DNA of 63,472 nucleotides, filler included, from Stramenopiles sp. TOSAG23-2 (lineage: Eukaryota): the NCBI GenBank assembly GCA_900128395.1. It is 18 parts of 18 records of this genome, joined end to end, with 100 filler letters (N's around TTAATTAATTAA, not from the genome) between each part and the next. Parts side by side here need not be neighbours in the genome. Positions count along the whole stretch, not along the records: positions 55,123 to 58,672 come from LT651172.1; 17 more parts are not named here. One strand, given 5' to 3'. Below, piece after piece: positions 55,023 to 58,672 of the stretch (positions are counted from its first letter, which is position 1; the number at the start of each line of letters is the position of its first letter). The notes beneath the pieces were generated by a model, which worked only from the letters and a program-made list of their open reading frames with translations, made no database searches and had not been told where the DNA came from. Both the position numbers and the translations under genes were made by a program.

Positions 55023-55231
55023 NNNNNNNNNNNNNNNNNNNNNNNNNNNNNNNNNNNNNNNNNNNNTTAATTAATTAANNNNNNNNNNNNNNNNNNNNNN
55101 NNNNNNNNNNNNNNNNNNNNNNAAAACTCTTGCTTCAATCTCGTTATATGATAACTCTCCAAAACACTTCATTATGATTTAAATAAAATGACAAATCTTT
55201 AAGTATGTTTGTTAATGTATATAACTTAATT

Positions 55232-57368
55232 CTACCTCAATTTATACGAAAGTTGATCGTCGCCACTAACTTTAAGCCATATGGTCGAACTTTTCTCTAA
55301 ACAATCTATTTTCTTGAGCTCCACATCGGTTAAATGGATTCCAAGTCGTGTCACTGTCATAGGCTGTTCGTTTCTTAAGTGAATCCAGTTCTCATACGGT
55401 AAATGCTTGTAAATTTGACGCGTATTGTAACCTTGAGCTGCTGCTTCATTATCTGCTGAGGCTACAGCAATGGTAGTGCTCTGTTGGCCCATATTGGCCG
55501 AACCTACAAACGACTCCACTGGCAGTCCAAGAACATTCACTAGAATAGCTGGATTTGTAAAACTTGACTCGTTTATTTCGACATAATCGCTTTCTAATGT
55601 TGCCCCACTTGCAACAGAATACGAGTTGTTTGTGAACCCAAGTAATGCTTTGCAATTTGCGTGACGATTCATAAAGCCTAACCAGTGCAGATTCTCAGTA
55701 TCTAAATAATCTATACCCTCGTATCCAAAACCCAAAGCTTTTTTCGTAGGACACGCTACACTAGGTGATGCACCACTTACATCAAGATGATGAATTGCTT
55801 TGCACTCTAATGGAAAACAATCTTTATTCTCAAATGCTGCAACTTGATACAAATGTAACTTATGATAAATAGGATAGTCGCCATCCGCATCTGTCACCTC
55901 AAGGGTGTCAAGGGGAGTATAAGTGGATTGATTGTCTTTATTATACAAAATTTGTAGCTTATAACCGTTGTCGTATATCGGTCTCATCATAATTTTCATA
56001 TTTTTGGCATTTCCTGCATCAAATATACTGACACCTGTTGCTGTTTGTGAAAATTCTGTGGTATTGGGTTGTAGTTCGCCTAGTTTTGCGATGCGTGACT
56101 TACAAACAATTAATTCCGCATTACTATCTACTCGCACGCCATACACCACTCTTGACTGTAACCTTGACCAATCGCTGTTTGCGTCCAGTTCGTTGTTTTG
56201 ATCTAAATCTATCATATCTTGAGTTGTAATTCCCATCAAGCATTGTAGTTTATCTTTGGGTTGATTCGCTGGAGGTTTCAACTCCCATCGATATCCTTGA
56301 ATGCCACCTGCTCCATTGATTAAATCTCCAGCAGAAATATCTGTTACTGTTTCTGTGTTATCTACATTCCACAGCGGCTTTGTATTGATAAAATTTAATC
56401 CTCCTGTTTGCGGGTAAATGGTTGATTCCTCAGGGTCTACTTCTTCTCTTATGATGAATGTCAATTTTTCGGTAGTATACCAATTAAAGGGGACACCATT
56501 GTAGCCTGTGGTAGGATTGGGCACATTTAAATTTTGATCAATAACTTGAATATCAAATTGAATATGAGTTGCAGCTGATATAGGACCGCCTCCAGGTATG
56601 TAGCCTGCTATACCAAGGATTTTAATAAAAGTGTATGTTCCACCTCTTGGACCAGGGTCAAGAGATATACAAGTTAAATTTTTTCCTACACTATCAATCC
56701 AATCTTGTGTTCTTGACACTCCATCTGCATCTAGTGTATTGACTCCAAGAATAACAGCTTGGTCGATGGAAATTTGAAAAACCCCGTTTGTGTTGTTGCA
56801 TTCACCTGGTGCCAAAAACACCGTTGATGTCCCATTTGCAATCATATTAAAACTAACATCACCTGCAATCATATCGTTGACACTTAATATCGGTTGTGTA
56901 ATACTTTGAATGGCTACTTGACCTGCATTGTTGCCATAGCTTATCCACTCTCCCGCTGACATATTTTTCGGCTCTTGTCGCACCAACTTAAAACTGACCT
57001 TGTTGTTTACCATACTTACATTCCACCCTCCACGATACGGCGAAACCATTTCAGCTTCATTCATTGATTTTTGAACTTCTTGAGGAAGAGTTCCTAAATT
57101 TGTTCCGTAATATGAACCATTTTGAAATTTAGCATATTCAACAGGCAAAAACATTCTATTCGTTGAATCGACATCATTGAGTGTCCAAGCAATCGTATCA
57201 TTGTCTTCATTTACAATAACATTTCCACTAATTTCTTCAGTAAGAGTATCTAGACCTCTAAACTGTCTTAAGAAACTATACCCTTGACACGCTATTTTTG
57301 GGGTCTGTAAAGTTATTCCAGAAACGGTGTGGGTCTTGGTCTTGACTATTCATAACAATCAAACTCAT
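55232..57368 (-). CDS. Putative minor capsid (penton) protein with a large insertion. Frameshift near 57299
   Basis: The C-terminus AILVNVLGLPVESFVG...TTIAV...YKHLPYENWIHLRNEQPMTVTRLGIHLTD...STIWLKV resembles PLV penton C-termini. The N-terminus MSLIVMNSQDQDPHRFWNNFTDP (ATG 57368) is in a different frame from KIACQGYSF..., which runs in frame into ORF 55232-57154. Confidence 0.65.
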
Positions 57369-57411
57369 ATTTGATATATAAAAATATTTAATTTCTTTTT
57401 ATATATCATAA

Positions 57412-57606
57412 ATGCGACTAAAGAAACGAAAGATTAAAGTCATTAAATGTGGTTGTTCAAAAACCAAAAAGAACCGCTTGCAGCGTGCAGTTGCAAAATC
57501 ACAGAAACCAAAGCCCAAACCAAAAATAGATGAAAAAAATATATTTATTGTCAAGAAAACACGGAAAAAAAAGCAATATAGCAACAAACAAACCAAAAAG
57601 AAATGA
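57412..57606 (+). CDS. Small Lys/Arg-rich protein (64 aa)
   Basis: Fills the gap between the penton-like and helicase genes. Its stop directly abuts the helicase stop. Confidence 0.5.
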   Translation: MRLKKRKIKVIKCGCSKTKKNRLQRAVAKSQKPKPKPKIDEKNIFIVKKTRKKKQYSNKQTKKK

Positions 57607-58672
57607 TCAATCGTCTTCATCACTAGAGGTGTCTTCGTCCTCTTCTTCGTATTCATACAAATATCCTTGAGTTTGTAAATGTTCCATCAGTTGCGCCCAT
57701 TGAATTTTATATTTCATTCTACCATCGCTTTTTATCTTCTTTACAAAAGTTTTGTATTCTTCAAGTTTTCGATTAAACGATTTTACACTCACATCTGCCA
57801 CATTGCAATACTTTTGTAAATATTTTTTATAATGATCAAAAAATTCCGTTGTTTTAATTCTACTAATTTCTCGTTTTTTATCTCCTTGACTTAAAATATC
57901 AATGTATTGATTATGGTAATATTCAAAAAACTTGGCTTCTAGCGGTATAAACGATTTTGTCAAAGTCTTGTATATTTCTGTTATTGGTCTATCTTTCGCT
58001 GCGTGAAACTTGCTAATGTCCCGTTTGTATAAAAACTCGTGAAAGCAATACATTAATTTATCATCTTCAAGTGCCTCTGCCAATCGGTTGAAATACTCTT
58101 TGTTACCAATCATATCATCTGCAACTTTTGTCACCATAAATCGTCTGGCTTTAGGTGGAATTTTCAATGGTGTCAAGTTATTTGAGAACATAATTAATCT
58201 ACGATAAGACTGTTCTTTCCGTAAATTTACACGCATTCCCCGAATGCTCTGCTTTTCTGCTGTAATAAAATTCTTAATAAATTCCACTACATTAAAACTT
58301 GTTTTTGCTTCTACTTCATCCAAAATTACCAATATCTTTTTGCTTAAATGTTCATTCTTATCAGCTGTCAAACGAGTTATATTTTGCTCTTGAAATACCA
58401 TTTCATCGCCTAATATTGTACTTCCAAATTTTTCCCAAAACAGGTTTTTACCTGTGCCTGGTTTGCTCATAAACAACAATGCAACATTTGGTCGTTCACC
58501 AGGTCTTTGTATCAAATGCGCCAAGTAGTTTAATATGTATTCATATACACTTTTGTTCTTGTCTGCTAACAGGAAGATATGGTCCAATATCACTTGAATA
58601 TCTATATCCTCACGATGGATATAATTGTGGATTCTAAAACCTTTGAACAAATTTAGTGTTTTAGGGTCTAAA
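57607..58672 (-). CDS. Superfamily 3 (D5-like/DUF5906-type) primase-associated helicase, 5'-partial
   Basis: TLNLFKGF, LAHLIQRPGE, Walker A SKPGTGKN, Walker B ILVILDE, motif C LIMFSNN and arginine finger ARRF, followed by a winged-helix-like C-terminus. Confidence 0.9.

What the first reader, a model, noticed from the sequence alone, without database searches (positions are those of the whole stretch)
55123..58672. Polinton-like virus / virophage-type element binned with the protist
Seen: the whole contig is compact and intronless. It holds an SF3 helicase, a small basic ORF, a penton-like gene and the start of a further gene (ATG 55172, MKCFGELSYNEIEARV, minus strand). Established: PLVs and virophages carry an SF3 primase-helicase plus major and minor jelly-roll capsid proteins, and they are often endogenous in protist genomes. 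Inference: this is an endogenous or co-sorted PLV, possibly of an undescribed lineage, and it provides a host link.
Basis: partly seen in the sequence, partly recalled or inferred. Interest (0 to 1): 0.72.

Follow-up and report, generated by a model that had tools for sequence, protein, structure and literature searches.

The report
Polinton-like virus fragment in protist bin
This 3.5-kb contig is a piece of a small DNA virus of marine protists, probably from an already described and abundant group, so it is a sound but fairly ordinary find and gives only a weak clue to the host.

Summary
Window 55123-58672 is one whole 3,550-bp contig, cut at both ends inside genes and about 97% coding.

**What it carries**
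- The C-terminal 354 codons of a D5/C962R-type primase-SF3 helicase.
- A 64-codon lysine-rich gene on the other strand, which is conserved and under purifying selection.
- A gene of about 712 codons, and the first 16 codons of a further gene.

**The long gene.** The true ATG is at 57368. The frame breaks at 57300/57301, where 20 nt are missing compared with an 82%-identical intact relative. A model of that relative (pLDDT 75) shows a single jelly-roll base made from the N- and C-terminal ends. It matches vertex penton proteins (mavirus, and Sputnik and PBCV-1 capsid chains). A roughly 400-residue lectin-like beta-sandwich is inserted in the middle.

**Relatives.** They lie on viral contigs of about 6-30 kb, one a 22.9-kb record with direct terminal repeats. 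These carry three tandem capsid-sized genes and a small Walker-A/B ATPase. That points to the described "Trimcap/group X" polinton-like viruses, though membership was not proven.

**Verdict.** Polinton-like virus: supported. Penton-like: supported. Undescribed lineage: doubtful. Host link: weak, because there is no host junction and integration is not shown.

The parts
57607..58672 (-). C-terminal 354 codons of a primase-SF3 helicase. The 5' part is lost at the contig end. Walker A is KPGTGKN and Walker B is LVILDEVE.
   Evidence: Pfam DUF5906 scores 48.5 bits (cut-off 27.6) and VapE-like gives 3.5e-9. PHROG DNA primase families match, as does PDB primase 6k9e at 1.3e-7. It is 88% identical to residues 422-758 of the 773-aa L001 protein. 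The L001 protein is 33% identical over 609 aa to P0011, which carries AEP_C962R plus DUF5906. dN/dS against L001 is 0.10. The motifs are read.
57412..57606 (+). Small lysine-rich protein of 64 aa (K+R 47% in the 64-aa L001 ortholog). It ends base-to-base against the helicase stop codon and is transcribed divergently from the penton-like gene. Inferred to be a DNA-binding or core protein.
   Evidence: It is conserved in L001 (64 aa) and in the more distant L002 (65 aa). A lysine-rich ORF of 58-66 aa sits in the same place and orientation in 11 of 16 loci examined. dN/dS against L001 is 0.03 over 64 codons. It has no Pfam or PHROG family.
57369..57411 (.). 43-nt AT-rich spacer between the two divergent start codons. 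It holds an inverted pair of TTTTATATATC, one copy 4-5 nt upstream of each ATG. Possibly a two-way promoter (inference).
   Evidence: These are the only two exact copies of the 11-mer in the window, at 57373-57383 (minus) and 57397-57407 (plus). In L001 only the arm next to the penton-like gene is kept, with one change, so the symmetry is not conserved.
55232..57368 (-). Penton-like capsid gene of about 712 codons. It has a single jelly-roll base built from the N- and C-terminal ends, with a lectin-like beta-sandwich of about 400 residues inserted between them. As assembled, the frame breaks at 57300/57301.
   Evidence: The ATG is at 57368 with 23 conserved codons, then 20 nt are missing compared with L001. 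It is 82% identical to the intact 717-aa P0003. The P0003 model has pLDDT 75.3 and pTM 0.65. Fold matches to penton proteins and to lectin/SPRY/GH16 domains are. dN/dS against L001 is 0.11 over 683 codons.
55208..55231 (-). 24 nt directly after the stop codon, identical in L001. Similarity to L001 is lost beyond it.
   Evidence: blastn gives 24 of 24 identical to L001 4715-4738. The alignment beyond it breaks down.
55123..55172 (-). First 16 codons of a further gene (MKCFGELSYNEIEARV), cut by the contig end. Identity unknown.
   Evidence: Read. It is not alike to the ORF at the same place in L001.

Best explanation
The contig is a fragment of the genome of a polinton-like virus, a small double-stranded DNA virus of protists. 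It most likely belongs to, or sits close to, the Trimcap/group X lineage.

**What the fragment spans**
- The end of the replication gene, an AEP-primase/SF3-helicase fusion.
- A small lysine-rich protein, probably DNA-binding (inferred from composition only).
- The vertex (penton) protein.

**How the penton-like protein is likely to work**
- The conserved N- and C-terminal ends form a single jelly-roll. This is shown by a model of the 82%-identical ortholog.
- By analogy with mavirus, Sputnik and PBCV-1, that jelly-roll would assemble as a pentamer at the capsid's fivefold vertices. This step is inferred.
- The large, variable lectin-like insert sits between the third jelly-roll strand and the rest, and would point outward. 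It is the likely host-surface (glycan) binding module. This step is also inferred.

**State of the window's copy.** As assembled it has a frame break after codon 23. That is either a very recent inactivation or an assembly error. Whether the element is integrated in the protist, was infecting it, or was merely sorted together with it cannot be told from this contig.
For: **Fold**
- The model of P0003 was built with a 67-sequence alignment and has pLDDT 75.3 and pTM 0.65.
- In the unbiased search of 48,161 PDB chains, the top two rows are a PBCV-1 capsid chain and a Sputnik capsid chain:
  - 6ncl_a6: Z 13.2, rmsd 3.2, 138 of 167 residues aligned, model range 1..713.
  - 3j26_N: Z 12.0, rmsd 6.9, 261 of 362 aligned, model range 1..714.
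- The mavirus penton protein, named as such in the entry title, gives Z 11.4 with 249 of 287 aligned over model 1..709, and Z 10.4.
- The top two Foldseek PDB hits are chains of the EhV-201 and PBCV-1 capsid entries (5.8e-8 and 4.4e-7).
- The top Foldseek hits against predicted viral structures are giant-virus proteins.
- Residues 136-538 match SPRY, galectin, ERGIC-53 and GH16 beta-sandwiches at Z 10-12.

**Family shape**
- The profile search found 105 representative proteins at E<=1e-3. Many match in two stretches, about 1-160 and about 560-706, which means conserved ends and a variable middle.

**Linkage to other virus genes**
- On L001 (7.5 kb) the gene sits between the primase-helicase and two conserved capsid-sized genes.
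- The 485-aa family (alignment A6) is on 32 viral contigs of about 6-30 kb.
- On 15 of those 32 the penton-like family is also present in the fetched stretch.
- On those loci, families of 530, 467 and 491 aa lie in tandem. The first two are detectably related by iterated search.
- A 253-aa protein with Walker A and Walker B motifs is found in 23 loci.
- The record behind L009 is 22,890 bp, has direct terminal repeats, and has DUF5906 inside a 915-aa frame.
- A language-model feature search with a 491-aa family member places it next to clusters in which 16-24% of members carry Capsid_N (score 0.97-0.98). This is a lead only.

**Selection and occurrence**
- dN/dS against L001 is 0.03-0.11 for all three genes.
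- Contigs 90-99% alike were laid from one run labelled viral metagenome (X3, 11 pieces) and one seawater polyA RNA library (X6, 12 pieces, one of them under 90% alike).

**Literature (passages read)**
- Polinton-like viruses have a core of major capsid protein, minor capsid protein and ATPase, and often primase-SF3 helicase replication genes (bioRxiv 10.64898/2026.06.19.733378; PMC7805220).
Against: - The window contig itself carries no major capsid protein, ATPase, integrase or terminal repeat. No other contig of this window has a homolog of the L001 capsid-sized proteins.
Their profiles hit nothing in Pfam or PDB.
- The putative ATPase hits no family. Pox_A32 was not found in the two records that could be searched.
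- The penton rows tie in Z with lectin and SPRY rows that cover only the middle domain. Foldseek TM-scores are low (0.17-0.19), as expected for a multi-domain model but not reassuring.
- Only the mavirus entries name the chain as a penton. That 6ncl_a6, 8h2i_bG, 3j26_N and 8rbs_K are penton chains is my inference from their size and from the papers.
- The model is of the ortholog P0003, not of the window's own frameshifted product. A first model of the window's frame with 8 sequences was poor (pLDDT 38.7).
- Some relatives may carry a second penton. The 2026 preprint reports two minor-capsid genes in some Trimcap B members.
Confidence: 0.8

Rival explanations
1. The contig is a decaying endogenous copy, integrated in the protist's chromosome and no longer able to make virions.
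For: - As assembled, the penton-like gene is frameshifted after codon 23.
- GC content (0.355) is close to the rest of the window (0.33).
- The 90%-identity cluster of the L001 capsid-sized protein has members on contigs of 62,748 and 81,390 bp. Two fragments of 79 and 197 aa lie on the 62.7-kb contig. Both contigs are longer than the 14-40 kb given for polinton-like viruses in the abstract of PMC12220804.
- A EukProt gene model (P0004) joins the C-terminal two-thirds of a homolog to unrelated N-terminal sequence.
- The literature reports Trimcap capsid genes in unclassified stramenopile genomes (PMC10120064, passage read).
Against: - There is only one lesion. The other 683 codons, the helicase part and the small gene are open, with dN/dS 0.03-0.11 against L001.
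- The lesion sits in a CCCCAAAAA run, where one base decides the frame. It was not confirmed independently.
- No host junction, integrase or repeat is on the contig.
- Close relatives occur in a run labelled viral metagenome.
Confidence: 0.3
2. The long protein is not the vertex penton itself. It would be another capsid-attached jelly-roll and lectin protein (a spike or receptor-binding protein), with the true penton encoded elsewhere.
For: - At about 705-717 aa it is about twice the size of the virophage penton chains matched here (mavirus 287-302, Sputnik 362 residues).
- L009 has several unassigned ORFs of 276, 332 and 324 aa with no family hit. One of these could be a small penton.
- The 2026 preprint reports two minor-capsid genes in some Trimcap B members.
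Against: - The base domain aligns end to end with penton proteins: 138 of 167 residues of the PBCV-1 chain and 249 of 287 of the mavirus penton.
- Those known pentons also carry inserts after strand D. These are the mavirus and Sputnik insertion domain and the PBCV-1 P1v1 'crown' (PMC6048507, PMC9617893, passages read).
- The feature search lists a 701-aa cluster of Sputnik V18/19-domain proteins at score 0.86. This is a lead only.
Confidence: 0.15
3. The contig comes from a giant virus (Nucleocytoviricota) or a small relative of giant viruses, not from a polinton-like virus.
For: - The best Foldseek hits are giant-virus capsid chains and giant-virus proteins.
- The nearest feature clusters are mostly labelled Nucleocytoviricota.
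- The helicase relative carries the AEP_C962R primase domain, named after an ASFV protein.
- The 2026 preprint describes PLV-sized groups with giant-virus-like capsid modules.
Against: - The related viral contigs are about 6-30 kb, and one 22.9-kb record has direct terminal repeats.
- No giant-virus core gene was seen in the 10 L009 ORFs or the 9 L005 ORFs scanned.
- The three tandem capsid-sized genes fit Trimcap.
Confidence: 0.07
4. The contig is bacteriophage or plasmid contamination of the bin.
For: The helicase domain also matches phage primase-helicases: 250 phage records at E<=1e-3 and PHROG primase families.
Against: - Phage matches are only 22-27% identical. The eukaryotic-virus-type relative reaches 33-36%.
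- The capsid-sized protein has no match in 50,697 phage records.
- The penton-like protein has no PHROG family. Its fold matches vertex proteins of protist viruses.
Confidence: 0.02

Closest known systems
Trimcap / group X polinton-like viruses (Bellas & Sommaruga 2021, PMC7805220; Piedade et al. 2024, PMC11502894; bioRxiv 10.64898/2026.06.19.733378 and 10.64898/2026.05.28.728513; passages read)
   Same: - The relatives are in the same size range, with related viral contigs of about 6-30 kb.
- They carry three tandem, highly divergent capsid-sized genes, a minor-capsid (penton) gene and a small ATPase.
- A primase-SF3 helicase is one of the replication modules described for polinton-like viruses.
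- The window's relatives are marine, and the published group has been linked to stramenopile genomes.
   Different: - Membership was not tested with the published profiles.
- The double jelly-roll fold of the three genes was not shown here.
- In the L001/window sub-lineage the gene order is rearranged. Two capsid-sized genes lie on the opposite strand right after the penton-like gene. In the other viral contigs they lie 7-9 kb downstream on the same strand.
Virophage penton proteins: mavirus MV17 (PDB 6g41/6g42) and Sputnik V18/19 (3j26)
   Same: Both have a single jelly-roll base with an insertion domain after the early strands. The alignment runs end to end: Z 10.4-12.0 with 240-261 residues aligned.
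   Different: - This protein is about twice as long.
- Its insert is about 400 residues with a concanavalin-A-like / SPRY-like sandwich. The mavirus insert is a 139-residue beta-sandwich (PMC6048507).
- There is no sequence-level match. PDB profile searches were empty, and only 1 of 67 family members weakly hits any Pfam family of possible relevance (DUF5901, E 0.0039).
[quoted passage not shown]
   Same: - It gives the best structural match for the base jelly-roll (6ncl_a6: Z 13.2, rmsd 3.2, 138 of 167 aligned).
- P1v1 also carries large inserts that form a crown holding the spike.
   Different: - The genome context is completely different in size (a giant virus against about 20-30 kb).
- P1 itself has no insert.
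- That the matched chains are P1 and P1v1 is my inference from chain length and the papers. The tool does not state it.
D5 / C962R-type AEP primase-SF3 helicase fusions of eukaryotic DNA viruses
   Same: - The DUF5906 helicase core has Walker A and Walker B motifs.
- The gene is 33% identical over 609 aa to a protein with an N-terminal AEP_C962R domain.
   Different: The primase half is missing from the window, cut by the contig end. It was not recognised by Pfam in the 773-aa L001 protein either, which is itself cut at its 5' end.

Membership tests
Polinton-like viruses (core: major capsid protein, minor capsid/penton protein, A32-like ATPase; genome about 14-40 kb) | Minor capsid (penton) protein with a single jelly-roll fold | tested here: met
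   The model of the 82%-identical ortholog matches the mavirus penton (Z 11.4, 249 of 287 aligned) and capsid chains of Sputnik and PBCV-1 (Z 12.0 and 13.2).
Polinton-like viruses (core: major capsid protein, minor capsid/penton protein, A32-like ATPase; genome about 14-40 kb) | Double jelly-roll major capsid protein | tested here: inconclusive
   - It is not on the window contig or on any other contig of the window.
- Relatives carry conserved families of 491, 467 and 530 aa.
- The feature search places the 491-aa family next to clusters partly carrying Capsid_N.
- There is no Pfam or PDB sequence hit.
- No fold was predicted.
Polinton-like viruses (core: major capsid protein, minor capsid/penton protein, A32-like ATPase; genome about 14-40 kb) | A32-like (FtsK/HerA) packaging ATPase | tested here: inconclusive
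   Relatives have a conserved 253-aa protein with Walker A (AAPIRSGKS/G) and an LILDD Walker B in 23 loci. It has no Pfam or PDB match. Pox_A32 was not found in the 2 records searched.
Polinton-like viruses (core: major capsid protein, minor capsid/penton protein, A32-like ATPase; genome about 14-40 kb) | Genome size and ends | tested here: met
   This holds for relatives only. There are 32 viral contigs of about 6-30 kb, and one 22,890-bp record is classed as having direct terminal repeats. The window contig is a 3.55-kb fragment.
Trimcap / group X polinton-like viruses | Three distinct major capsid protein genes in one genome | tested here: inconclusive
   Three tandem conserved genes of 530, 467 and 491 aa are present in the relatives. 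The first two are related by iterated search (E 1e-13 to 8e-5). The third is unrelated by profile comparison. Their folds and the published Trimcap profiles were not tested.
Virophages (Maveriviricetes) | Cysteine protease and virophage-type major capsid protein | tested here: inconclusive
   None of the 10 L009 ORFs scanned has any Pfam family passing its cut-off. None of the 32 members of the 491-aa family has a capsid Pfam hit. Divergent versions could be missed.
Polintons / Mavericks | [quoted passage not shown] | tested here: not met
   The replication gene is a primase-SF3 helicase instead. No polymerase or integrase family was found among the L009, L005 or L003 ORFs scanned. The window fragment alone could not show their absence.
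SF3 helicase of the D5-like / DUF5906 type | Family profile above its curated cut-off, with Walker A and Walker B motifs | tested here: met
   DUF5906 scores 48.5 bits against a cut-off of 27.6. KPGTGKN and LVILDEVE are read.
Vertex penton protein (function) | Forms pentamers at the fivefold vertices of the capsid | not testable with these tools
   Five copies of 717 residues exceed the size limit of the complex predictor, and the base domain is made of two separate stretches. No job was sent.

The most novel reading that the evidence does not exclude
The long penton, with its lectin-like head, would be the receptor-binding device of this abundant marine virus group, doing the job that separate fibres do elsewhere. 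The element would also be stably associated with this protist, either integrated or as a persistent infection. That would give a cell-level host assignment for a sub-lineage of the Trimcap/group X viruses. Their hosts are otherwise known only from capsid genes found in unclassified stramenopile genomes and from co-occurrence statistics.
Probability: 0.2. Interest if true: 0.6.

Novelty: new member of a known kind. Interest (0 to 1): 0.35.

Why it matters
Polinton-like viruses of the three-capsid-gene type are reported as the most abundant such viruses in Antarctic and coastal Pacific viromes (PMC11502894; bioRxiv 10.64898/2026.05.28.728513). Their hosts are barely known.

A fragment found with a protist's contigs is a lead to a host. 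It only becomes useful if integration, or presence in several cells, can be shown from the raw data.

Two pieces of annotation may help others working on these largely unannotated genomes. One is the reading of the roughly 700-aa gene as a penton with a lectin-like head. The other is the conserved small lysine-rich gene next to it.

Tried and rejected
**Searches that gave nothing**
- No whole genome is held for this window, so the rest of the assembly could not be searched for capsid, ATPase or integrase genes.
- Sequence searches of the penton-like protein and its family gave no usable hit in Pfam, PHROGs or PDB, singly or as profiles.
- The first scan of viral contigs with the narrow alignment A1 found no relative. 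The family was later found on viral contigs by way of the capsid-sized gene.
- Profile comparisons of the 290-aa L001 protein, and of its full-length family, with the penton-like and 491-aa families showed no relation.
- Inverted-repeat scans of L009, L028 and L005 found only AT-rich chance pairs, with no terminal inverted repeats in the stretches held.
- The earlier-findings index had nothing for this sequence or this genome.

**Frame break at 57300**
- I tried to confirm it with contigs of run X1, the one run whose pieces are all identical to the window.
- None of the 7 listed pieces bridges the site. One ends at 57299 and one starts at 57301.
- A hole in such contigs proves nothing, so the break is neither confirmed nor refuted.
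- Contigs of X2, X3 and X6 do not bridge it either.

- The run search listed 20 holders from 14 studies, several labelled viral metagenome or seawater metatranscriptome, plus a second sample of the same coded organism (X10).
- Only X1, X2, X3 and X6 were laid. The small shares of the others are not evidence for habitat or for presence in a second cell.
- Presence in the polyA RNA library X6 does not show transcription.

**Ideas considered and dropped**
- A programmed +1 shift at CCC-A would restore the reading TDP-KIAC. I dropped it because relatives have an ordinary uninterrupted frame there.
- The 85-aa minus-strand ORF 57399-57656 is probably spurious. It is kept in L001 but absent in L002, whereas the plus-strand lysine-rich ORF is kept in all three.

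
Full report
**What the window is.** The 63,472-base window is not one stretch of genome. It is a chain of contigs of roughly 3.5 kb each, joined by N44-TTAATTAATTAA-N44 linkers. The finding's coordinates, 55123-58672, are exactly one 3,550-bp contig. The other contigs carry long intron-free ORFs for typical eukaryotic proteins: HSP90, tubulin-tyrosine ligase, E2F/DP, a choline-transporter-like protein, MACPF and zf-MYND. So 'binned with a protist' is fair. Being next to those contigs in the window carries no information.

**Gene content of the contig.** Three of the four genes are on the minus strand.
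- Positions 57607-58672 encode the last 354 codons of a helicase that runs off the contig end. It passes Pfam DUF5906 (48.5 bits, cut-off 27.6). It also matches the VapE-like domain, PHROG 'DNA primase' families and a solved primase. Walker A (KPGTGKN) and Walker B (LVILDEVE) are visible in the translation.
- Positions 57412-57606 on the plus strand encode a 64-aa lysine-rich protein. Its stop abuts the helicase stop.
- After a 43-nt spacer comes the long gene.
- After a further 59 nt the first 16 codons of another gene begin at ATG 55172.
- By my arithmetic from these coordinates the contig is about 97% coding.

- Homologs are 705-717 aa and start MSL(I/V)V.
- In the window that start is at ATG 57368. 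After 23 codons the reading shifts, and the frame that holds the rest of the protein is open only from 57349.
- Alignment with L001, a 7.5-kb metagenome contig whose proteins are 82-88% identical to the window's, shows 20 nt missing at 57300/57301 inside a CCCCAAAAA run.
- This is the only lesion. The remaining 683 codons are open, with dN/dS 0.11 against L001. The helicase part gives 0.10 and the small gene 0.03.
- The divergence from L001 therefore built up under selection. The break is either very recent or an assembly error in a homopolymer run. I could not decide between these (see Tried and rejected).

**What the long protein is.**
- Sequence methods give nothing.
- A profile search of 1.84 billion representatives found 105 relatives at E<=1e-3. 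Many match in two stretches, at about 1-160 and about 560-706, so the ends are conserved and the middle varies.
- I aligned 62 of those 105, choosing proteins of about 560-760 aa. Fragments and proteins over 800 aa were left out. To these I added P0003, P0010, P0005, P0007 and P0008.
- I folded the intact ortholog P0003. The model has pLDDT 75.3 and pTM 0.65.
- In the search of all 48,161 representative PDB chains, the two best rows are chains of the PBCV-1 and Sputnik capsid entries. They are 6ncl_a6 (Z 13.2, rmsd 3.2, 138 of 167 aligned) and 3j26_N (Z 12.0, rmsd 6.9, 261 of 362 aligned). Both span the model from residue 1 to about 714.
- The mavirus penton protein, named as such in its entry, scores Z 11.4 with 249 of 287 aligned over 1..709.
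- Foldseek's two best PDB hits are chains of the EhV-201 and PBCV-1 capsid entries.
- The middle, residues 136-538, matches SPRY, galectin, ERGIC-53 and GH16 sandwiches at Z 10-12.
- The secondary-structure string has three long strands before the insert and the remaining strands after it. This fits an insert after strand D, as described for the mavirus and Sputnik pentons and for the PBCV-1 P1v1 'crown' (PMC6048507 and PMC9617893, passages read).
- Caveats: only the mavirus chains are labelled penton by the tool. The penton rows tie in Z with the lectin rows. The model is of the ortholog, not of the window's broken product.

**Genomic context in relatives.**
- L001 reads: primase-helicase, then the small basic gene on the opposite strand, then the 717-aa gene, then on the opposite strand a 485-aa gene and a gene cut at 290-305 aa.
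- L002, a more distant relative (50-61% identical by protein match), keeps the order helicase, basic gene, long gene.
- The 485-aa family is on 32 viral contigs of about 6-30 kb.
- On 15 of those 32 the penton-like family is also present, 7-9 kb upstream on the same strand. In the other 17 the fetched stretch does not appear to reach far enough upstream, which I judged from the gene positions and did not test.
- These contigs also hold a 253-aa Walker A/B protein in 23 loci. They hold three tandem genes of about 530, 467 and 491 aa. The first two are related by iterated search, and the cut L001 gene belongs to the 467-aa family.
- The record behind L009 is 22,890 bp, is classed as having direct terminal repeats, and has DUF5906 in a 915-aa frame placed just before the penton-like gene on the circle.
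- A lysine-rich ORF of 58-66 aa lies divergently upstream of the penton-like gene in 11 of 16 loci examined.
- None of these proteins has a Pfam family.
- A feature search puts the 491-aa family next to viral clusters that partly carry Capsid_N. This is a lead only.

**Comparison with what is known.**
- Polinton-like viruses are defined by a major capsid protein, a minor (penton) capsid protein and an A32-like ATPase. Their genomes are about 14-40 kb, and they often have primase-SF3 helicase replication genes (PMC7805220, PMC12220804, bioRxiv 10.64898/2026.06.19.733378; passages or abstract read).
- One group, Trimcap or group X, is defined by three highly divergent capsid genes. It is reported as the most abundant type in Antarctic and coastal Pacific viromes, and it has been linked to unclassified or MAST stramenopile genomes (PMC7805220, PMC11502894, PMC10120064, bioRxiv 10.64898/2026.05.28.728513; passages read).
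- The three tandem capsid-sized genes in the relatives fit that hallmark.
- I could not run the published profiles or fold the three proteins. I put membership at about 0.55, and 'polinton-like virus in the broad sense' at about 0.8-0.85.
The fold is a jelly-roll. The helicase's best full-length relative carries the eukaryotic-virus AEP_C962R primase (33% identity over 609 aa), while phage proteins reach only 22-27%.

**Free virus or endogenous copy.**
- Pieces 90-99% identical to the contig were laid from a run labelled viral metagenome (X3, 11 pieces). Pieces were also laid from a seawater polyA RNA library (X6, 12 pieces, one of them under 90% alike). That does not prove transcription.
- On the other side, the close capsid cluster has members on contigs of 62.7 and 81.4 kb, with two fragments on the former.
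- A EukProt gene model fuses part of a homolog to foreign sequence.
- The window contig itself has no junction, integrase or repeat.
- My split is roughly 0.3 integrated, with the rest free, infecting or co-sorted.

**Verdict.** The penton call is supported by fold. The likely lineage is already described, and the host link is unproven. The contributions of this check are:
- the corrected gene model with its frame break;
- the domain reading of the roughly 700-aa penton;
- the conserved lysine-rich gene;
- the probable link to the Trimcap/group X viruses.

Noticed in passing
window 1-63472: The window is a concatenation of contigs of roughly 3.5 kb each, joined by N44-TTAATTAATTAA-N44 linkers. 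Neighbourhood across linkers has no biological meaning.
   Followed up: yes
window 59101-59334: A 28-N gap (59204-59231) lies between two copies of the same stretch of about 100 nt. This looks like a scaffolding gap with duplicated flanks, just upstream of the E2F/DP-like gene.
   Followed up: no
window 29754-32729 (minus strand): A 991-aa ORF carries a full set of alpha-L-rhamnosidase (GH78) domains, whose Pfam families are named 'bacterial'. It could be contamination of the bin or a transferred gene.
   Followed up: no
window 8534-10195 (plus strand): A MACPF/perforin-domain protein lies in the most GC-rich kilobase of the window, 0.445 against about 0.32.
   Followed up: no
window 15422-15630: The motif hits TTTTATATATA and TTTAATATATC recur with the same 151-nt spacing. 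This suggests a tandem repeat in that contig.
   Followed up: no
L036 750-2737: On this viral contig the penton-like gene is split into two overlapping open frames, 750-1610 and 1607-2737. A frame break in this gene is therefore not unique to the window.
   Followed up: no
cluster of P0128: Proteins at least 90% identical to the capsid-sized protein of L001 lie on contigs of 62,748 and 81,390 bp. On the 62.7-kb contig they appear as two fragments of 79 and 197 aa. These may be endogenous copies.
   Followed up: partly
P0004 (EukProt gene model): A 460-aa gene model joins about 45 unrelated, basic N-terminal residues to the C-terminal two-thirds of a penton-like homolog (71% identical to the window's). 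This may be a mis-modelled or integrated copy in a protist data set.
   Followed up: no
L001 4762-5007 compared with window 55123-55207: After a shared 24 nt beyond the stop codon, the window and L001 carry different downstream genes. Contigs from X2, X3 and X6 also leave the window's sequence between 55208 and 55267. This looks like a recombination or gene-replacement boundary.
   Followed up: partly
L009 10837-16161; L005 12008-15355: Very long ORFs of 1,774 and 1,115 aa with no Pfam family follow the capsid genes or the penton-like gene in relatives. Function unknown.
   Followed up: no
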